This document shows positions 1-8,819 of a DNA stretch of 10,972 nt, one piece after another (the stretch's first letter is position 1; each line of letters begins with the position of its first letter). The notes beneath the pieces were generated by a model. That model had not been told where the DNA came from and did no database searches. It saw nothing but the letters and a program-made list of their open reading frames with translations. The position numbers and the translations under genes are program-made. The stretch comes from a virus (lineage: Duplodnaviria > Heunggongvirae > Uroviricota > Caudoviricetes): IMG/VR virus record IMGVR_UViG_2541047952_000005, positions 1-10,972 of that record; one strand, 5' to 3'.

Positions 1-834
1 ATGTCATCTTCCATCAAACAACAGATTAGAGATCGCAGCGAGTACATTGGTTTTATCGAAAAATGTTTTGCAAATGCGCATCAATGCTACGTTGTCCATT
101 ATTCATGTGAATCTTTTTATGATGCTGTGGGCGGTAAATCCACAAGGATCACCTCTATTGCTGTCAGAAATTTAGGCAGTGGGCAAACAGATCATTGGGC
201 TCTTAATAGATCCGCAGAATTATTAGGTCTTGATGTTTCAGATGAAAAAAATCTCGATATCCTTGAGCATCATCTATTAGATAACTACTTTACATTCCTG
301 AAAAGATACGCACAATGCACATTTCTGCATTGGAACATGCGAGATAACAATTACGGATTTCAGGCCTTACAGCATAGATTTTCAGTCCTAGGTGGCGAGC
401 CCTTTATACTTACTGATGACAGAAAACTCGATTTAGCGAGAGCTGCCGTTTCTATATATGGACGAAGCTATATTGGGCATACCGCCAAAAGTGGCCGTGC
501 AGGTAGAATGTTAGCTCTTGTTGAAAAAAATGGTATCGCTGATAAAGATGTCTTAGCCGGCGCTGAGGAAGCCGAGGCATATGTCAAAGGTAAGTATAGA
601 GAGCTAGAAATGTCTACATTACGAAAGGTCGACATACTCTGTAATATTGCTGAGCGGATTCATGATCGTACTCTCAAAACTAACAATAAATGGTTTTGGC
701 CAAGAAGCTGGCATCCATATTGGTTAACGATGAGGCTCAAAGAACACCCATTAGTGACTGGATTAATAGTTTTAGGGATTTTCTTAGGTGTAATTACCAA
801 AGGTCTAGATCTATATGCTTGGTGGCAGCAGTAA
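1..834 (+). CDS. hypothetical protein, 277 aa, with one predicted C-terminal transmembrane helix; function unknown
   Basis: ORF open from position 1 (ATG at 1-3; the true start could lie upstream of the window) to TAA at 832-834. C-terminal hydrophobic stretch LVTGLIVLGIFLGVITKGL suggests a membrane anchor. No family recognised by eye. Confidence 0.5.
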   Translation: MSSSIKQQIRDRSEYIGFIEKCFANAHQCYVVHYSCESFYDAVGGKSTRITSIAVRNLGSGQTDHWALNRSAELLGLDVSDEKNLDILEHHLLDNYFTFLKRYAQCTFLHWNMRDNNYGFQALQHRFSVLGGEPFILTDDRKLDLARAAVSIYGRSYIGHTAKSGRAGRMLALVEKNGIADKDVLAGAEEAEAYVKGKYRELEMSTLRKVDILCNIAERIHDRTLKTNNKWFWPRSWHPYWLTMRLKEHPLVTGLIVLGIFLGVITKGLDLYAWWQQ

Positions 835-2361: not shown

Positions 2362-2708
2362 AAGATAGCAAAAAAACAACCCTACTTCATTCACCGAACT
2401 GATGGGTAGCCAATATTCATGGCGGCAATCGGCAGCGCCCCTTCGAACGTAGTGACGAGGCCGAAGGTTTTTTAATAGTGACGTCTGCGGCCGATGAAGG
2501 CTTGGTTGATATACACGACCGACAGCCACTTGTATTGTCACCGGAGGCAGCCCGGGAATGGGATGCGCCAAGACGCCGAGGCAAGGAAGCAGAAGCGATT
2601 ACCGACTACGGTGCCGTGCAAGCTGACAAGTTTATCTGGCATGCAGTTACGCGAGCGATGGGTAATGCGAAAAATCAAGGTGAATATCTTATTGTTTCAA
2701 TTGAATAA
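2362..2708 (+). pseudogene. SRAP / YedK-like (SOS-response-associated peptidase) gene remnant: 5'-truncated, one in-frame TAG, one frameshift
   Basis: Frame 1 from about 2362 reads ...KKQPYFIHRTDG*PIFMAAIGS with TAG at 2407-2409. After the C-run near 2438-2441 the similarity continues in frame 0: PFERSDEAEGFLIVTSAADEGLVDIHDRQPLVLSPEAAREW... to TAA at 2706-2708. This resembles my recollection of the C-terminal half of E. coli YedK, including the His-containing HDR motif. The N-terminal half with the catalytic Cys2 is absent. From memory, not searched. Confidence 0.55.
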
Positions 2709-2733
2709 TAATGTTTTTACCTCAAATTAGCAT

Positions 2734-2739
2734 TATACT
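2734..2739 (+). promoter_or_regulatory. possible -10 element (TATACT) for the AT-rich ORF at 2786
   Basis: TATACT lies 47 nt upstream of the ATG in an AT-rich leader; no good -35 at 17-bp spacing. AGGA at 2771-2774 is a plausible ribosome-binding site. Weak call, since AT-rich DNA gives many chance matches. Confidence 0.25.
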
Positions 2740-2785
2740 ATTTCATGCTTTATTTACACCTCTTTAAATTAGGATAACAATTATA

Positions 2786-4534
2786 ATGGAAAACTCTAAT
2801 AGCAATTTGATTGTAAAAATAGTTCATCTTCTACAATCCGAAAGAGATGGACTTATTTTTATTGATGGAAAATGGGGAACAGGTAAAACTTTTTTTATTA
2901 AAAATGTATTTCCTCGTTTTTATGATCTTAATGTGTTTTATTATATTTCATTACTAGGCGTTAAGTCTCTTGCAGATTTCAAAGCAAAGATTATTGACTG
3001 CTACTATCTTCAAGATATAGACACTCTTAAGTCTGGGTTAGATACTATTTCTGGTTTGGGTAGTGTAAGCAGTGGTTCTCCCGCTAGTGCCAATGTGCTT
3101 AATGGTGTGTTCAGTTCCATTGGTTCAAGTGTAAGAGAGAACATACTCTCCAAACTCAGTGGCATATTTATATTAGATGACATTGAGCGATTAAGCACTC
3201 CCTCACTGGCCAATGAAATACTAACTTATTGTCATTCGTTATATTCAACCTCAAAAATCTCTAGTTTGGATTTTATTGTTATATCTAATACATCTGCCGA
3301 ATCCCACCTGTCATTAGAACATAAAGAAAAAATTATTTCTGATTCACTTCATTACAACCCAAACCCTCGCGACATATTAGATATGAGAATAATTGAAGAA
3401 AAACTACAGTACTTCCCCACTGAAGACAAAATGATTTTCGAAGAAATAATATCATACCATAACATAGTTAACATAAGAATTTTAATGAGGTGTTTAAATA
3501 CTGCACTTCCATTATATTTACACGCAGAAAACCACCCTGAACTAGAGTGGAAAATCGCCTCTAAAACCATACTAAGCTCAATTTTGTCATATTTTATCTT
3601 GTTATTTATCCATAACAAATCCATGGACGAACTGATCATTGACAGCATCCAGCATATCCCACCCCAAAATTCCAGCAGCGATGAAAATCCACATGAACCG
3701 AGACTTTTGTCTACATTACACAATTATAAAATTAATATTCACCTTAAAAATTACTACAGTGGTCATGTTTCTCTTTATGATATATTGGACGATGTTTTTT
3801 ATGTGCCAACACCTTTAAGTACAATTGATATTGCAGTTTCAACTCGACCAGAACTACAGGAGACAGATGAAAAAGAATTTTTCCCCACGATTATTGGTTT
3901 AATTTCTAGAACAATACCATGTGATTTGCACCAATGGCTTAGGGCGGTTCAGAACTATGAATATTTGACTTATCATAAATATCTTCCAAAATCATCATTA
4001 CTAACATTGCAGTTCATGAGTTCTAAATCACTCGAATTTAGTGACGAGGACATTATTACTTACTTTGAATTTCATAACAACAATCCAATCAGTAGTTGGA
4101 CTAGTGGCTTTGATGATGGGAAACTTATATTTTCAATATTATCAGGCCGTCATAATAATATTGAAAAGAGAAAAAACTTAAAGACAATTAAGGAAATTAT
4201 TGAAACTGATGGTTGGGCTTTATTTGATGTTAACTTATTACTCAAATTAGATCCCATGGGAAACTATAAAACGCTAGAAGTACTTGGCGCACCATTTTTG
4301 ACCAAGTGCATTTTAAAAGAATGGAGCATTAAAGATATAGAGCAATTCAACGCTTTTTTAAGAAGTAATTATAGAATTAGTAACATATCTCAGTTTGCCA
4401 CAAATGAAAAGCAGCGCCTTATATACCTCAATCAAAAACTTGACATTTATTTCATAGGTAAGCAAGAAAGTTTTAAATATGGCGCGATATATGATTTAAA
4501 CAATACAGTAAGACACGCAATTTCTTGCCTATAA
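2786..4534 (+). CDS. KAP-family-like P-loop NTPase, 582 aa, AT-rich, horizontally acquired; candidate phage-exclusion/defence protein
   Basis: ATG at 2786 with AGGA upstream; TAA at 4532-4534. Walker A GKWGTGKT (aa 28-35) has the G-x-W-G-x-G-K-[ST] form typical of KAP NTPases; Walker B-like GIFILDDIERL about 100 aa later. The C-terminal roughly 430 aa are unrecognised and rich in N/I/K/S/Y. Composition visibly more AT-rich than all neighbours. Confidence 0.6.
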   Translation: MENSNSNLIVKIVHLLQSERDGLIFIDGKWGTGKTFFIKNVFPRFYDLNVFYYISLLGVKSLADFKAKIIDCYYLQDIDTLKSGLDTISGLGSVSSGSPASANVLNGVFSSIGSSVRENILSKLSGIFILDDIERLSTPSLANEILTYCHSLYSTSKISSLDFIVISNTSAESHLSLEHKEKIISDSLHYNPNPRDILDMRIIEEKLQYFPTEDKMIFEEIISYHNIVNIRILMRCLNTALPLYLHAENHPELEWKIASKTILSSILSYFILLFIHNKSMDELIIDSIQHIPPQNSSSDENPHEPRLLSTLHNYKINIHLKNYYSGHVSLYDILDDVFYVPTPLSTIDIAVSTRPELQETDEKEFFPTIIGLISRTIPCDLHQWLRAVQNYEYLTYHKYLPKSSLLTLQFMSSKSLEFSDEDIITYFEFHNNNPISSWTSGFDDGKLIFSILSGRHNNIEKRKNLKTIKEIIETDGWALFDVNLLLKLDPMGNYKTLEVLGAPFLTKCILKEWSIKDIEQFNAFLRSNYRISNISQFATNEKQRLIYLNQKLDIYFIGKQESFKYGAIYDLNNTVRHAISCL

Positions 4535-4541
4535 ATTGGCA

Positions 4542-4580
4542 TACTAAGTCTCAGCCGAATTGTATAACTGAGACTTAGTA
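4542..4580. terminator. stem-loop between convergent genes (13-bp stem, 13-nt loop); putative bidirectional terminator
   Basis: TACTAAGTCTCAG (4542-4554), loop CCGAATTGTATAA, then CTGAGACTTAGTA (4568-4580), a perfect inverted repeat. Lies between the end of the AT-rich ORF (4534) and the end of umuC (4658). No clean U-tract, so efficiency is uncertain. Confidence 0.45.
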
Positions 4581-4657
4581 ATCAAAAATAAGAACATTTG
4601 ATTTATCGTTTCTAATAAACTCATCCACCGTTTTCCGAAGAATCTGTCACCGGAAAA

Positions 4658-5926
4658 TCACCTGACAACGGGTAGATCAGAGAATCGGGTGGTGTAACGT
4701 GGAGAAAGTATTTCCCGTTTCATCTGCCACTGCTGCTGGATACCCTGTCCTGCAAAATACAGCGTCCCCCTCCCGCCTTTGGCATTGAGGTGATCCAGCA
4801 CTTCCATCAGTTTCTCACTGCCCGGGCGCGGCGCGTTATCATCGAACAAGTTGAGCTGAGCCACGCCCTGACTGAAGAAATCACCCAACATCACCCCGGC
4901 TTTCTGATACCGATATCCGTCTTGCCATATGGCGTCCAGACAGCGGATGGCTGCACTGATGATATCCCGACTGTCCTGCGTAGGCGTCAGAAGCTTCACG
5001 GAGGCATTATTGCCATAATAGGGCTCGTTCAGTGCGAACGGGCTGGTCTTCACAAACGCCGAGATAAAACGGCAATACTGGTGCTCGCCACGCAGTTTCT
5101 CTGCCGCCCGCGAGGCATAGCTGCAGATCGCCTGGCGCATCTCTTCATACTCCGTGATACGACCGCTAAAAGAGCGGGAACAGATAATTTCCTGTTTCAC
5201 TGGCGCGAATTCTTCCAGTGCCAGGCAGGGTTCTCCGCGTAACTCACGCACCGTTCGCTCCAGCACGACATTAAAATGTTTACGGATAAAACGGATGTCC
5301 GTATCAGCGAGTTGCAGTACGGTCTTGATCCCCATCGCCTCCAGTTTTTTCGAAATACGCCGACCGATGCCCCAGACTTCATCAACCGGCAGCGCGGCCA
5401 TCAGTTTGCGCTGGCGATCGACACTGGACAGGTCTACCACCCCGCCCGTCTGCCGCTGCCATTGTTTGGCCGCGTGGTTGGCCAGCTTGGCCAGCGTCTT
5501 GGTCTGGGCAATGCCAACACCCACTGTCAGATGCGTTCGCTGCAGAACAGTAGCACGGATTTCACGGCCAAAATCAGTCAGATCACGACAGTTACGTACA
5601 CCAGTGAGGTCACAAAATGCCTCGTCTATCGAGTAAATTTCACAGCGCGGCGACATTTCTTCCAGCGTGGTCATCACCCGGTTAGACATATCCGCATACA
5701 GCTCATAGTTGCTGCTGAAGCACACCACCCCATGGCGCCGGAAAAAGTCCTTCTGCCTGAAGTACGGCTCACCCATTTTGATACCCAGTTTCTTTGCCTC
5801 TGTGCTGCGGGCAATAACACAACCGTCATTGTTGGAAAGCACCACAACCGGCCTACCTTTGAGATCCGGGCGAAATACAGTTTCACAGGAGGCATAGAAC
5901 GAGTTCACATCACACAACGCGTACAT
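4658..5926 (-). CDS. umuC: UmuC, error-prone translesion DNA polymerase V catalytic subunit (Y-family)
   Basis: Near-full-length similarity to E. coli UmuC as recalled ([22 protein letters not shown]...[11 protein letters not shown]...[19 protein letters not shown]...[11 protein letters not shown]...). The track start at 5932 is a TTG; ATG at 5926-5924 matches the UmuC N-terminus and lies 2 nt after the umuD stop. Confidence 0.93.
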
Positions 5927-5928
5927 GA

Positions 5929-6348
5929 TCAACCCGTCGATTTCACGATGAACGTCACCACACCAAAAACATCGAGCGTTTCTTCGCTCCCGATGATGAT
6001 AGGCGACCAGGCGCGGTTTTCAGGGTTAAGCTGGACAGTTGGCCATAACTGTAGGCGCTTAACGGTAAATTCCCCGTCCACCGCAGCAATAACGATATCG
6101 CCGTGCTCTGCCTTGCGTGAACTGTCCACTACCAGTAAATCGCCTTCGCCGATCCCGGCATCAATCATCGAGTCACCAGATGCCTTAACGAAGTACGTGG
6201 CGCTGGGGTGTTGTATCAGTAGCTCGTTAAGATCGATACGCTGTTCAACGTAGTCCTGAGCAGGGCTTGGGAAACCACAGGGTACAAGATCGCCATAGAG
6301 TGGAAGCGGCTGCACTGCACGCAACCCGGAGGGAGTGAAAAACTGCAT
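5929..6348 (-). CDS. umuD: UmuD, LexA-like S24 self-cleaving accessory subunit of Pol V
   Basis: Cleavage-site context VPCGFPSPA, active-site FVKASGDSM and TVKRL lysine region are all present, resembling E. coli UmuD. The track start at 6363 is a TTG; ATG at 6348 (MQFFTPSGL...) aligns with the UmuD N-terminus and has GGTGA 5 nt upstream. ATG at 6351 is an alternative. Confidence 0.93.
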
Positions 6349-6367
6349 CATAATCACCGTCAATTAA

Positions 6368-6387
6368 TACTGATATTATATACAGTA
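6368..6387. promoter_or_regulatory. LexA (SOS) box upstream of umuD
   Basis: TACTGATATTATATACAGTA, i.e. CTG-N10-CAG with an AT-rich centre, close to the consensus TACTGTATATATATACAGTA; 20 bp upstream of the umuD start. Confidence 0.8.
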
Positions 6388-6455: not shown

Positions 6456-7007
6456 TTACCTGGTTGCCGGAAATTTTTTATATAGCGTCGATATCCCAAC
6501 ATCGTAAATTAATGCCACACGCTGTCGTGATTCACCTGCTGCAACCAACCTTCCTGCCTGCGCCCACTGTTCATCAGTTAGCTTTGATCGACGCCCACCT
6601 ATTCGCCCTTCTTCACGAGCCGCAGCCAATCCCGCCCTGGTACGTTCGACTATCAGCTCCCTTTCCATTTCGGCAAGTGCGCCCATGACATGGAAGAAAA
6701 AGCGTCCCATTGGTGAAGACGTATCTATGCTGTCGGTCAGGCTGCGAAAGTTAATACCCTTTTCCCGAAGCTCCTCCACCAAAACGACAAGATGCCGCAT
6801 GCTGCGACCGAGTCGATCCAGTTTCCAGACCACCAGCGTATCGCCTTCAGACAGAGTCCTGAGTACTTTCTTCAACCCCGGTCGGTCAGACGTTCTGCCG
6901 CTGATCTTATCCTCGAATATCAGTTCACATCCTGCGCACTCCAGTGCGTTTCGTTGCAATGCGGTGTTCTGGTCATTTGTTGACACACGTACATAACCGA
7001 TGAGCAT
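6456..7007 (-). CDS. serine-recombinase DNA invertase (Pin/Gin/Hin/Cin family)
   Basis: MLIGYVRVSTNDQNT... (catalytic Ser in VRVST), ...DTLVVWKLDRLGRS..., ...SPMGRFFFHVMGALAEMERELI..., C-terminal HTH ...ALIYDVGISTLYKK; close to E. coli e14 PinE as recalled. ATG at 7007 with AGGGG upstream. Lies immediately outside the invertible segment. Confidence 0.93.
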   Translation of the reverse strand: MLIGYVRVSTNDQNTALQRNALECAGCELIFEDKISGRTSDRPGLKKVLRTLSEGDTLVVWKLDRLGRSMRHLVVLVEELREKGINFRSLTDSIDTSSPMGRFFFHVMGALAEMERELIVERTRAGLAAAREEGRIGGRRSKLTDEQWAQAGRLVAAGESRQRVALIYDVGISTLYKKFPATR

Positions 7008-7073
7008 GAGAAATACCCCTGTAAAAAGCCGGGATCATGCCATCTGAGCGGAATAACTGCATTTTCTAAAAGG

Positions 7074-7094
7074 TTGGTTTGGGAGAAGCCAGAT
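7074..7094. repeat. inverted repeat / recombination crossover site, invertase-proximal
   Basis: TTGGTTTGGGAGAAGCCAGAT is the exact reverse complement of 8510-8530 (21/21). Embedded in a 26-bp imperfectly palindromic site 7062-7087, TTTTCTAAAAGG TT GGTTTGGGAGAA, resembling gix/hix-type sites. Confidence 0.8.
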
Positions 7095-7836: not shown

Positions 7837-8819
7837 CAGGCATACTCCTCAACAATAACTATTCCCGGGGCACCGTCACCTCCCGATTGAGCCTCACTTC
7901 CAGCAGGTGCGCAGGCTCCGCCTCCGCCAGCACCAAAGCCCTCAGCTTTACCACCACCACGTCCTCTGAATGATGAAGAACTTGCACCACCTATACCGCC
8001 TGAACCTAATGGTGTATCCCCCCCGGTACCACCTGCTACAGCTTTAACAGAGATAACCATTGCTCCTGGTGTTTTTGCACTACAGCGAAATGCTCTTAGT
8101 ACAGTGCCGGACGATGTCGGACTGGCACCCCATGAAATACCCTGAATATATGATGTGTTTGCAGATGCTCCCCCCGCGCCACCGCCTGTACCACCAGGTG
8201 CAGTTATCATGGAACCGAAATAAGTTGTGCCACCTTCACTACCTGAATTTCTTCCGGCTCCCCCCCCTTTACCTGCAGCACCGATAATAACGTTGACTTC
8301 GAAATCATTATCAACCTCGAAAAATGCTTCAATAAATGCGCCGCTCAATCCAGCTCCGGCTGTTGCCTGCTGATTTTCTGTTGTTTCAGGAACCCCACCG
8401 CCGCCGCCGCCACCACCAGAGGCAATGACCCTTATCTTTTTTGTCCCTGGTGTTGGGATATATTTTCCAGAGCTTTTAAAAATATTCGTGTTTAACAAAC
8501 GACCAGAGAATCTGGCTTCTCCCAAACCAAGGTTTTCGAGAGCCGTTTTCACCGTGCCGTCCGATTTGATATCGCCAAACGGATTCTTGCGGCTTAACAG
8601 CAGCGCACGAAGCGCGGTAAGCAGCTGGTCATGCCGCCCCTTCTCCAGGCTGGCACCGGACGCCTCCACCACGCTACAAAGTTCTTCCTGCAACATATCA
8701 AAATAGTCATCATCCAGATCGGTGGCAGGTGTGCCGGTCTGGGGGTTACCACGGGTAAAACCGTTCTTACCCGCGCCGAACTTATCCTTCTGCGCGGTTT
8801 TCGTGTCTATGCGATGCAT
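7836..8819 (-). CDS. phage tail-fibre protein, 327 aa: conserved N-terminal about 97 aa plus glycine-rich C-terminal domain in the current orientation
   Basis: ATG at 8819-8817 with GGAG upstream. N-terminus [21 protein letters not shown]... is of the e14/Mu-like side-tail-fibre type. The C-terminal 230 aa lie inside the invertible segment and are Gly-rich (GGGGGGGG, GGTGGGAGG, GAGGGGA). Confidence 0.88.
8510..8530. repeat. inverted repeat / recombination crossover site inside the tail-fibre gene
   Basis: ATCTGGCTTCTCCCAAACCAA, partner of 7074-7094. The 26-bp site 8517-8542, TTCTCCCAAACC AA GGTTTTCGAGAG, has palindromic half-sites and lies at fibre codons about 94-102 (ENLGLGEA). Confidence 0.8.

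What the first reader, a model, noticed from the sequence alone, without database searches (positions are those of the whole stretch)
2786..4534. AT-rich orphan ORF with KAP-type P-loop NTPase motifs: candidate undescribed phage-exclusion gene
This 582-aa ORF is compositionally foreign to its GC-rich neighbours. Its N-terminus carries GKWGTGKT, the G-x-W-G-x-GK[ST] Walker A form that marks KAP-family NTPases, with a Walker B-like GIFILDDIERL about 100 aa later. The remaining roughly 430 aa match nothing I recognise. The KAP family includes F-plasmid PifA, which excludes phage T7, and the gene sits among prophage cargo, an IS element and SOS genes, the kind of locus where defence genes accumulate. 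The functional role is inference.
Basis: partly seen in the sequence, partly recalled or inferred. Interest (0 to 1): 0.78.

Follow-up and report, generated by a model that had tools for sequence, protein, structure and literature searches.

The report
KAP-like NTPase in prophage cargo slot
An intact, AT-rich single gene for a soluble KAP-like ATPase fused to a helical domain of unknown function sits in a swap-in cargo slot at the end of an E. coli prophage; it is most likely an untested anti-phage defence gene of a kind shown experimentally only recently.

The parts
2709..4657 (+). The whole cargo segment inserted between the SRAP stop codon and the umuC stop codon: leader, gene and terminator-like hairpin.
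   Evidence: In 30 related prophage loci the SRAP and umuC stop codons overlap in a single TTAA with nothing between them, and one more has an 11-bp gap. Here 1.95 kb of roughly 33% GC DNA separates them.
2709..2785 (+). AT-rich 77-bp leader with promoter-like hexamers (TTTACA-17-AACAAT at 2753-2781) and an AGGA about 11 nt before the ATG.
   Evidence: Consensus scan. The roughly 90-bp upstream region is alignable among alleles even in loci that lack SRAP, so it travels with the gene. Promoter function is not shown. There is no LexA box here.
2786..4534 (+). CDS for a 582-aa KAP-like P-loop NTPase with a helical C-terminal region. RefSeq WP_021574712.1, annotated 'P-loop NTPase fold protein'.
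   Evidence: Purifying selection, dN/dS 0.10-0.27.
2867..2890 (+). Walker A motif GKWGTGKT (aa 28-35), the KAP-type GxWGxGK[ST] form.
   Evidence: Invariant in 31 homologues. This is the only stretch matched by Pfam KAP_NTPase (aa 10-42, 28.9 bits).
3014..3112 (+). Gly/Ser-rich insert (aa 77-109) between Walker A and Walker B, predicted disordered.
   Evidence: pLDDT below 50. Maximum Kyte-Doolittle 19-residue hydropathy is 0.69, so it is not a transmembrane segment. By recalled knowledge of the family, many KAP NTPases carry TM helices at this topological position.
3164..3190 (+). Walker B motif IFILDDIER (aa 127-135), of the form hhhhDDx[DE]R as in PifA (IVVMDDLDR).
   Evidence: D131, D132, E134 and R135 are invariant. 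Motif comparison with PifA.
3470..3478 (+). Invariant N229-x-R231 at the start of the lid helix, a candidate sensor or arginine finger.
   Evidence: Invariant columns, helix 230-249 in the model. The role is inferred.
3536..4531 (+). C-terminal all-helical region (aa 251-582). aa 251-440 is the most variable part of the protein.
4542..4580 (+). Perfect 13-bp stem, 13-nt loop hairpin 8 nt after the stop codon, a likely transcription stop or stabiliser for the cargo gene.
   Evidence: The 141-nt region has MFE -33.2 kcal/mol and z -4.77. Most other alleles inspected carry their own, different hairpin at the same place, including a canonical terminator in L139. There is no T-run on the + strand here, so terminator function is inferred.
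2371..2708 (+). Left slot boundary: the 3' remnant of the SRAP (YedK/HMCES-type) gene, truncated by the IS3 element.
   Evidence: Pfam SRAP hit on the 76-aa ORF, RefSeq pseudogene annotation, 74% identity to the C-terminal 43% of intact prophage SRAP.
4658..6348 (-). Right slot boundary: the prophage umuC-like (4658-5926) and umuD-like (5929-6348) genes, with a LexA box at 6370-6385.
   Evidence: Pfam IMS/IMS_C/DUF4113 and Peptidase_S24, RefSeq annotation, LexA-like CTGATATTATATACAG, about 75% nucleotide identity to chromosomal umuDC.

Best explanation
The ORF is an autonomous, horizontally exchanged, single-gene anti-phage (or anti-mobile-element) defence module carried as prophage cargo. The N-terminal 250 residues form an NTP-driven switch: an ASCE/AAA+-like P-loop core with KAP-type Walker A and B motifs plus a helical lid carrying an invariant Asn-x-Arg. 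The C-terminal 330 residues form a non-catalytic, HEAT-like helical scaffold whose middle part is the fastest-evolving region. I infer that this scaffold recognises a phage-encoded trigger or target, and that NTP binding or hydrolysis converts recognition into an inhibitory state, by oligomerisation, by sequestering or remodelling the bound phage component, or by nucleotide consumption. No nuclease, protease, TIR, SIR2 or pore domain is present and no partner gene is conserved, so sensor and effector must lie in the one polypeptide. What is shown: the gene anatomy, the fold, motif conservation, purifying selection, cargo-slot behaviour and hotspot occupancy. What is inferred: the defence phenotype, the role of the C-terminal region and the effector step.
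For: (1) Cargo-slot behaviour. In 80 prophage loci with the same SRAP gene, the SRAP|umuC junction is empty in 31, holds about 30 different mostly AT-rich inserts in 34, and holds this NTPase in 1. Other cargoes include an AbiC-like protein, an FRG/PDC-S15 protein (E 5.6e-32), a VakA-like protein and an O-antigen-type acyltransferase.
(2) Validated hotspot. A 30%-identical full-length homologue lies between the integrase and psu of a P4-like satellite (L031). That is the hotspot in which 11 of 16 tested systems protected against phages (bioRxiv 10.1101/2021.01.21.427644). The Yersinia homologue follows an integrase at ssrA in a P4-like element.
(3) Autonomy. There is no conserved partner across prophages with four tail types, an ICE, a plasmid, a TA-adjacent site and solo islets. 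The gene carries its own leader and hairpin.
(4) Database relatives. PADLOC PDC-S49 matches at E 7.8e-14 over aa 24-314, and distant family members score up to 102 bits.
(5) Class precedent. KAP NTPases fused to a region of unknown function protect E. faecalis from phages, and protection needs both Walker B and the C-terminal region (PMC13552941).
(6) Evolution. dN/dS is 0.10-0.27 (functional), but dN is 4-12 times that of UmuC in the same locus pairs. Alleles only 36-59% identical sit between flanks that are 81-95% identical. GC is 0.30-0.33 in every host.
(7) Rarity. 3 of 5,426 complete E. coli genomes carry it.
Against: There is no experimental phenotype for this protein, for any member of its family, or for PDC-S49, which is a guilt-by-embedding candidate only (no paper mentions PDC-S49). 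The slot also carries cargo that is clearly not defence (an MFS transporter, a ParA-like ATPase), and most cargo is unknown, so slot occupancy is suggestive and not diagnostic. There is no recognisable effector domain. The match to canonical KAP proteins and to PifA is confined to the Walker A region. No phage-genome record carries the gene. Several copies are solo chromosomal genes away from any defence island.
Confidence: 0.6

Rival explanations
1. The NTPase is a functional partner of the SOS cassette it sits in (SRAP-NTPase-UmuC-UmuD-DinI). For example, it might load or regulate SRAP or polymerase V at damaged DNA, co-transcribed with SRAP.
For: The same five-gene arrangement recurs at 35-100% NTPase identity in prophages with Mu-like, lambda-like and P2-like tails and on an Enterobacter plasmid. 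The NTPase always lies 65-100 bp downstream of SRAP on the same strand. The fold resembles ORC/Cdc6/RFC-type DNA-associated AAA+ proteins.
Against: The SRAP|umuC junction is empty in 31 of 80 related cassettes and holds unrelated cargo in 33 others. Full-length homologues occur without SRAP or UmuDC in P4-like satellites, a P22-like prophage, an ICE, Vibrio elements and solo islets. The NTPase is about 32% GC and the cassette about 50% in every case, and it diverges far faster than its neighbours. The only LexA box is in the umuD/dinI intergenic region. In the window itself SRAP is a pseudogene while the NTPase is intact. The AAA+ structural matches are generic.
Confidence: 0.05
2. It is a prophage moron or accessory gene with a non-defence role. 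It might be a host-fitness factor, a factor in prophage or satellite competition other than phage exclusion, or a selfish or addictive NTPase that promotes its own retention.
For: The slot carries non-defence cargo as well, including an MFS transporter, an acyltransferase and a ParA-like ATPase. Some copies are solo chromosomal genes in metabolic neighbourhoods. One lies next to a RelE/MqsA-type TA pair. No effector domain is detectable. Sources annotate the family only as a generic ATPase.
Against: The N-terminal half matches a defence-candidate profile and nothing else. Homologues occupy the int|psu hotspot of P4-like satellites. The sporadic distribution, allele turnover and variable C-terminal region fit an arms race better than a housekeeping or fitness role. 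The closest experimentally tested architecture is antiviral.
Confidence: 0.22
3. It works specifically like F-plasmid PifA, as a membrane-associated abortive-infection KAP NTPase that kills the infected cell when it senses particular phage proteins.
For: It shares the GxWGxGK[ST] and hhhhDDx[DE]R motifs with PifA and passes the Pfam KAP_NTPase gathering score (28.9 against 20 bits). It has an insert at the position where many KAP proteins carry membrane helices.
Against: PifA aligns with the KAP profile over positions 2-290 of 293 (148.5 bits), but this protein aligns only over 9-41. hhalign against PifA gives 58.8% probability over 39 columns. In PADLOC, PifA hits PifA, QatA and PDC-S20, whereas this family hits PDC-S49. 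The insert is hydrophilic and disordered (KD maximum 0.69) and no convincing TM segment exists. The one KAP-plus-unknown-region protein tested for abortive infection (EF_KAP) was not abortive.
Confidence: 0.1
4. It is a decaying remnant or a spurious ORF with no function.
For: It has foreign composition and is rare in E. coli. It lies next to an IS element and a pseudogene. Some Yersinia intermedia copies are split into fragments.
Against: The reading frame is intact in all three E. coli genomes and in a 91-member cluster. Conservation is full-length across hundreds of representatives. dN/dS is 0.10-0.27. Catalytic motifs are invariant. The model is confident, with pLDDT 82-88.
Confidence: 0.03

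Closest known systems
[quoted passage not shown]
   Same: A single polypeptide with an N-terminal KAP-type NTPase followed by about 320-330 aa with no known domain or structural relative. The genes are mobile-element associated and a small serine recombinase gene lies nearby. In the tested proteins both Walker B and the C-terminal region are required for protection.
   Different: EF_KAP has two predicted transmembrane helices, one of them inside the NTPase domain, whereas this protein has a hydrophilic disordered insert and no convincing TM segment. Those proteins come from Firmicutes and gut metagenomes. The recombinase in this window is a tail-fibre invertase flanked by its own inverted repeats, so its proximity is probably coincidental.
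PADLOC candidate system PDC-S49 (Payne et al., bioRxiv 10.1101/2024.01.29.577857)
   Same: It is the best profile match: E 7.8e-14, aa 24-314 against profile positions 27-322 of 624. Overall length is similar (about 580 against about 620-630 aa) and it is a single-gene system. The same match is seen throughout the wider family.
   Different: Only the N-terminal half aligns and the C-terminal halves are not detectably related. PDC-S49 is itself an untested guilt-by-embedding candidate. This family is best described as a sister group sharing the NTPase and lid module.
PifA of the F plasmid (T7 exclusion), the canonical KAP family (Pfam PF07693), and QatA
   Same: KAP-type Walker A (GxWGxGK[ST]) and Walker B (hhhhDDx[DE]R) motifs, and carriage on a mobile element.
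   Different: There is no full-length KAP domain match, hhalign aligns only 39 columns, and the PADLOC family assignments differ. PifA is 741 aa and is encoded in an operon with pifC.
STAND/NLR-like antiviral ATPases (Avs/AVAST, bNACHT)
   Same: The general logic of a P-loop switch module followed by a variable helical-repeat-like C-terminal region that could serve as a sensor. NLRX1 and NRC2 appear among the weak structural hits.
   Different: There is no separate N-terminal effector domain, no NACHT or NB-ARC profile match above threshold, a much smaller size, and KAP-type rather than STAND-type motifs.
Prophage and satellite defence hotspots: P4 int|psu and the P2 Z/fun and old/tin loci (Rousset et al.)
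   Same: A fixed position flanked by conserved genes, in which many unrelated, mostly AT-rich cargoes alternate. A homologue of this gene occupies the P4 int|psu hotspot itself.
   Different: The slot here lies between the convergent SRAP and umuC genes of a prophage-borne SOS cassette. In four literature searches I found no description of it as a hotspot. Its cargo is mixed and not demonstrably defence-dominated.

Membership tests
KAP family P-loop NTPase (Pfam PF07693) | Walker A of the form GxWGxGK[ST] | tested here: met
   GKWGTGKT at aa 28-35, with G28, W30, G31, G33, K34 and T35 invariant in 31 homologues.
KAP family P-loop NTPase (Pfam PF07693) | Walker B of the form hhhhDDx[DE]R | tested here: met
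   IFILDDIER at aa 127-135, against IVVMDDLDR in PifA. D131, D132, E134 and R135 are invariant.
KAP family P-loop NTPase (Pfam PF07693) | Match to the whole KAP_NTPase domain profile (293 positions) | tested here: not met
   Only profile positions 9-41 align (aa 10-42). The score of 28.9 bits formally passes the 20-bit cut-off. The PifA control aligns over 2-290 at 148.5 bits. Two distant family members (P0090, P0120) reach profile position 195-198.
KAP family P-loop NTPase (Pfam PF07693) | Transmembrane helices inserted between Walker A and Walker B (present in many but not all prokaryotic members; from recalled knowledge of Aravind et al. 2004, and from EF_KAP in PMC13552941) | tested here: not met
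   The insert at aa 77-109 is Gly/Ser-rich with pLDDT below 50 and a maximum 19-residue hydropathy of 0.69. The only window above 1.6 (aa 257-275) is a helix inside the C-terminal helical region. By the same measure PifA has no TM segment either, so this feature is not strictly defining.
KAP family P-loop NTPase (Pfam PF07693) | Profile-level homology to PifA beyond the P-loop | tested here: inconclusive
   hhalign of the family alignment against PifA gives probability 58.8% and E 9.4e-5 over 39 aligned columns around Walker A only.
PADLOC PDC-S49 (candidate single-gene defence) | Significant match to a PDC-S49 HMM | tested here: met
   PDLC05031 at E 7.8e-14 and 49.4 bits. Two further PDC-S49 models match at E 1e-10 and 4e-10.
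PADLOC PDC-S49 (candidate single-gene defence) | Near full-length coverage of the profile (same protein family end to end) | tested here: not met
   Only profile positions 27-322 of 624 align. The same N-half-only pattern is seen in nine other family members.
PADLOC PDC-S49 (candidate single-gene defence) | Found embedded in BREX, DISARM or type I RM loci (the basis of the PDC definition) | not tested
   None of the roughly 25 neighbourhoods inspected showed such embedding, but no systematic search was run (definition).
AAA+/ASCE P-loop NTPase fold | P-loop alpha/beta core plus helical lid, structurally superposable on AAA+ proteins | tested here: met
KAP NTPase plus region-of-unknown-function antiphage class (PMC13552941) | C-terminal region of about 300 aa without a known domain or structural relative | tested here: met
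KAP NTPase plus region-of-unknown-function antiphage class (PMC13552941) | Walker-B-dependent and C-terminal-region-dependent reduction of phage plaquing | not testable with these tools
   This needs cloning and phage challenge.
Prophage/satellite defence-hotspot cargo | Occupies a position where many unrelated cargoes alternate between conserved flanks | tested here: met
   SRAP|umuC slot: 31 empty, 34 occupied by about 30 cargo types, among 80 loci. A homologue sits in the P4 int|psu hotspot.

The most novel reading that the evidence does not exclude
This family could define a mechanistically new kind of single-protein immunity. It would be a soluble KAP-like NTPase without a separate effector domain, whose rapidly evolving HEAT-like C-terminal scaffold binds a phage component and whose NTPase cycle neutralises it directly by sequestration or remodelling, without killing the cell. 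It would be delivered through a previously unrecognised cargo hotspot at the tail-to-tail junction of SRAP and umuC in prophage-borne SOS cassettes. That position could also place expression under read-through from DNA-damage or prophage-induction signals.
Probability: 0.2. Interest if true: 0.7.

Novelty: new member of a known kind. Interest (0 to 1): 0.45.

Why it matters
If the phenotype is confirmed, this adds a widespread family to the newly recognised class of KAP-type NTPase defences: 282 representatives at 50% identity with E<=1e-30, spread across Gammaproteobacteria. Its lack of membrane helices and of any recognisable effector domain makes it a clean system for asking how an NTPase plus a helical scaffold can stop a phage on its own. 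Independently of that, the SRAP|umuC junction of prophage SOS cassettes behaves as a diversity hotspot, with about 30 cargo types in 34 occupied sites, most of them unannotated. It can be anchored on two highly conserved genes, which gives a cheap new bait for mining accessory and defence genes in Enterobacteriaceae.

Tried and rejected
(1) SOS-cassette partner hypothesis. I raised it after finding conserved SRAP-NTPase-UmuCD-DinI synteny and rejected it after the slot census and the unlinked distant homologues.
(2) LexA control. The only good LexA box is in the umuD/dinI intergenic region and none precedes SRAP or the NTPase.
(3) Transmembrane insert. Hydropathy rules it out.
(4) Antisense or overlapping ORFs inside the gene (3352-3723 and 3010-3213, minus strand). 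They are not consistently conserved among homologues, and the recurrent open antisense frame over aa 74-151 coincides with the Gly/Ser-rich insert, so it is a composition by-product.
(5) Structured RNA. There are no Rfam matches in the window.
It should have been run with the alignment.
(8) Sequence-profile search of the PDB found nothing.
(9) Literature searches found no paper mentioning PDC-S49 and none describing the SRAP|umuC slot. One search failed on a term that was too short.
(10) Serine recombinase as a defence marker. The recombinase here is flanked by 30-nt inverted repeats around a tail-fibre segment, so it is a Gin/Cin/Pin-type host-range switch and not evidence for defence.
Full report
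**1. Observation**

The window contains an ATG-initiated ORF at 2786-4534 (+) encoding 582 aa. Its GC content is 0.326, against 0.54 and 0.53 for the adjacent umuC- and umuD-like genes. The sliding profile falls to 0.31-0.36 across 2600-4600.

GKWGTGKT occupies aa 28-35 and IFILDDIER aa 127-135. In an alignment of 31 homologues spanning 18-78% identity, the invariant columns are G28, W30, G31, G33, K34, T35, S55, G58, D131, D132, E134, R135, E181, K182, N229 and R231. So the motifs are real and conserved.

The gene is identical in three complete E. coli chromosomes out of 5,426, where RefSeq calls it 'P-loop NTPase fold protein' WP_021574712.1.

**2. Family size and naming**

The word-indexed search found 47 clusters (90% identity), nearly all 576-598 aa and aligned over 98-100% of the query. 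They come from Citrobacter, Enterobacter, Cronobacter, E. coli, Yersinia, Pectobacterium and Vibrio.

A profile search of 1.84 billion representatives found 282 proteins at E<=1e-30 and 4,652 at E<=1e-10. Most are 550-610 aa and match end to end. Sources name them only generically: 'P-loop NTPase fold protein', 'AAA family ATPase' or 'KAP family NTPase'. Hosts include Enterobacter, Leclercia, Shewanella, Vibrio, Pseudomonas and Rheinheimera.

**3. Domain and fold assignment**

- **Pfam.** KAP_NTPase matches only aa 10-42 (profile positions 9-41 of 293; 28.9 bits against a cut-off of 20). AAA_22 and ATPase_2 are below threshold. NCBIfam gives nothing meaningful.
- **PifA control.** PifA from the F plasmid (L055:7446-9671, minus strand) matches KAP_NTPase over positions 2-290 at 148.5 bits. 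hhalign of the family alignment against PifA aligns only 39 columns around Walker A, at 58.8% probability.
- **PADLOC.** The best PADLOC match is the candidate system PDC-S49 (E 7.8e-14; aa 24-314 against profile 27-322 of 624). Nine other family members show the same N-half-only pattern, with scores up to 102 bits. PifA instead hits PifA, QatA and PDC-S20.
- **PHROGs.** phrog_4740 (unknown function) matches aa 6-290.

The family therefore shares KAP-type motifs but is a divergent lineage, closest to PDC-S49 through the NTPase and lid module.

**4. Structure**

The AlphaFold2 model of the full protein has mean pLDDT 82.3. It shows a beta-alpha P-loop core (strands at 23-28, 51-55, 126-131, 161-167 and 184-190), a disordered insert at aa 77-109, a helical lid, and an all-helical C-terminal region.

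The insert between Walker A and Walker B is not hydrophobic (maximum 19-residue Kyte-Doolittle value 0.69). The single window above 1.6 (aa 257-275) is a helix inside the C-terminal helical region.

**5. Genomic context of the window**

The region lies directly downstream of ssrA in E. coli. The gene order is:

- a 277-aa hypothetical protein;
- an IS3-family element;
- a truncated SRAP pseudogene;
- the NTPase (+);
- umuC-like and umuD-like genes (−) with a LexA box at 6370-6385;
- a serine invertase;
- an invertible tail-fibre segment;
- Mu-like baseplate and tail genes and an HK97-type head.

The prophage umuDC is about 75% identical in DNA to the chromosomal umuDC present in nearly all E. 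coli genomes.

**6. Conserved synteny, and why it is not functional linkage**

Homologues at 58% identity (Citrobacter amalonaticus) and 37% identity (C. freundii), and a plasmid copy in Enterobacter cancerogenus, sit in the same arrangement: SRAP(+) - NTPase(+) - UmuC(−) - UmuD(−) - DinI(+). This cassette is found at the tail-fibre end of lambda-like and P2-like prophages. That first suggested a functional SOS partner.

Three tests argue against that.

First, more distant full-length homologues are unlinked from SRAP and UmuDC:
- Yersinia (32%): directly after an integrase at ssrA in a P4-like element.
- A viral contig (30%): between the integrase and psu of a P4-like satellite.
- Pectobacterium (30%) and Cronobacter (58%): solo islets.
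- Vibrio cidicii (22%): an integrative element next to toxin-antitoxin cassettes.
- An ICE, a site next to a RelE/MqsA-type pair, the tailspike end of a P22-like E. coli prophage, and a C. freundii island containing a second, canonical KAP NTPase.

Second, within the cassette the NTPase is the odd member. It is 36-59% identical between cassettes, whereas UmuC is 81-86%, UmuD 75-80%, SRAP 86% and DinI 95%. Its GC is 0.30-0.33 in every locus, against 0.40-0.55 for the flanks.

Third, a census of the slot gives the clearest result.

**7. The SRAP|umuC junction is a cargo hotspot**

The prophage SRAP has 465 relatives in IMG/VR, and the best 80 were fetched.

| Category | Loci (of 80) |
|---|---|
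| SRAP and umuC abut (2-bp gap in 30 loci, 11 bp in one) | 31 |
| 500-2,605 bp inserted (GC 0.31-0.52, mostly 0.32-0.44) | 34 |
| No complete umuC (none, or in one locus only a partial match) within 7 kb | 15 |

In the 2-bp-gap sites I inspected, the two stop codons overlap in a single TTAA. The 34 inserts comprise about 30 unrelated ORF sets, and only one contains this NTPase.

Of 20 cargo proteins scanned, the recognisable ones are:
- an AbiC-like protein (Pfam putAbiC, 38.8 bits);
- an FRG-domain protein matching PADLOC PDC-S15 (E 5.6e-32);
- a VakA-like protein (E 4.5e-7);
- weak capP and PDC-M28B hits;
- an O-antigen-type acyltransferase, an MFS transporter and a ParA-like ATPase.

About a dozen have no hit.

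Alleles only 36% identical to each other lie between nearly identical flanks. For example, L030 and L004 have SRAP 90% and UmuC 95% identical. The last ~10 SRAP codons co-vary with the cargo, which suggests exchange by recombination in the flanking genes.

Solo copies appear to derive from the slot. The ~90-bp leader, including the last SRAP codons and stop (…TTTGAT), is alignable in loci that lack SRAP. By eye, the sequence just downstream of the P22-like copy (L143) resembles the umuC 3' end seen in L004 and L018.

**8. A self-contained, functional gene**

Most alleles inspected have a hairpin immediately after the stop codon. In the window it is a perfect 13-bp stem at 4542-4580, and the 141-nt region folds with z = −4.77. 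In the solo Cronobacter locus (L139) the hairpin is followed by a T-run, as in a canonical intrinsic terminator.

No partner gene is conserved. dN/dS between allele pairs is 0.10-0.27, which shows purifying selection. In the same locus pairs UmuC has dN/dS of 0.02-0.07, and dN of the NTPase is 4-12 times higher.

By region, the NTPase core is the most conserved part, at 49-59% identity for the ~36% alleles P0027 and P0029. aa 251-440 is the least conserved, at 23-27% for the same alleles. This is the pattern expected for a conserved engine with a variable specificity region.

**9. Comparison with what is known**

Rousset et al. showed that the int|psu locus of P4-like satellites is a defence hotspot, with 11 of 16 tested systems protective (bioRxiv 10.1101/2021.01.21.427644). 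A homologue of this gene occupies that locus.

Payne et al. defined the PADLOC PDC candidates by embedding in BREX, DISARM or type I RM loci. PDC-S49 is not individually discussed or tested there, and no paper in the library mentions it.

Andersen et al. (PLoS Biol 2026, PMC13552941) showed that an E. faecalis KAP NTPase with two TM helices and a 322-aa region of unknown function protects against phages. So do three metagenomic KAP ORFs with different C-terminal regions. For EF_KAP, protection requires both Walker B and the C-terminal region, and it is not abortive.

The architecture found here is therefore a known kind. This particular family is soluble, only marginally KAP by profile, carries a unique C-terminal region, and is unnamed and untested.

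**10. Most likely mechanism**

I commit to an autonomous single-protein anti-phage (or anti-mobile-element) NTPase, with confidence 0.6.

Shown:
- an ASCE/AAA+-like NTP-binding module with invariant catalytic residues;
- a non-catalytic helical C-terminal region that is the fastest-evolving part;
- no effector domain and no partner gene;
- cargo-hotspot behaviour and purifying selection.

Inferred:
- the C-terminal scaffold recognises a phage component;
- the nucleotide cycle turns recognition into inhibition, by oligomerisation, sequestration or remodelling of the bound component, or nucleotide consumption.

Whether the outcome is abortive or direct cannot be decided here.

Rivals:
- non-defence moron or selfish NTPase (0.22);
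- PifA-like membrane abortive infection (0.10);
- SOS-cassette accessory factor (0.05);
- non-functional remnant (0.03).

**11. Verdict**

The gene is a good, experimentally tractable defence candidate, but it is a new member of a kind that is now known, and not an undescribed type of system.

The most useful by-product is the SRAP|umuC cargo slot. I found no description of it in the searchable literature. It contains many unannotated genes.

Interest: 0.45.

Noticed in passing
window 2709-4657, compared with loci L056-L135: The tail-to-tail junction of the SRAP and umuC genes in prophage-borne SOS cassettes is a diversity hotspot. Among 80 loci it is empty in 31 (stop codons overlapping in TTAA in the empty sites inspected) and carries about 30 unrelated, mostly AT-rich cargoes in 34. 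Most cargo proteins have no Pfam or PADLOC hit.
   Followed up: partly
window 7065-7094 and 8510-8539, with the invertase at 6456-7007 (-): 30-nt inverted repeats (90% complementary, with an AAACCAAGGTTT-like core) flank a 1.4-kb segment holding alternative tail-fibre C-terminal and assembly ORFs, next to a Gin/Cin/Pin-type serine invertase. This is an invertible host-range switch.
   Followed up: partly
window 1-834 (+): A 277-aa ORF of about 40% GC lies between ssrA and the IS element. It matches phrog_8766 (unknown function, E 2e-54) and has no Pfam or PADLOC hit. It is another low-GC accessory gene at the prophage/attachment edge.
   Followed up: partly
window about 1040-2310 (orfA 1966-2250 -, orfB 1097-1909 -) and 2371-2708 (+): An IS3-family element with a programmed frameshift has removed the N-terminal half of the SRAP gene. 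Only a C-terminal pseudogene remnant is left upstream of the intact NTPase.
   Followed up: partly
window 4658-6385: The prophage carries a second, foreign umuDC-like operon, about 75% identical in DNA to the chromosomal umuDC, with a near-consensus LexA box (CTGATATTATATACAG) at 6370-6385. The DinI gene found beside umuD in other cassettes is absent here, and the invertase takes its place (as also in L025, L030 and L147).
   Followed up: partly
L145 15659-15740 (C. freundii island): The 70%-identical allele lies about 7 kb from a second, canonical KAP_NTPase gene (746 aa) and next to an 885-aa CHP02642 protein. This may be a small defence island.
   Followed up: no
window 3007-3223 (antisense of aa 74-146) and homologous positions in L004, L007, L018, L139, L143, L145: An open antisense reading frame of 70-78 codons recurs opposite the Gly/Ser-rich insert in many alleles. 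It is probably a by-product of the locally higher GC and codon composition.
   Followed up: partly
Yersinia intermedia cluster of P0050: Several Y. intermedia genomes carry the homologue split into fragments of 201-299 aa, which indicates pseudogenisation in that lineage.
   Followed up: no
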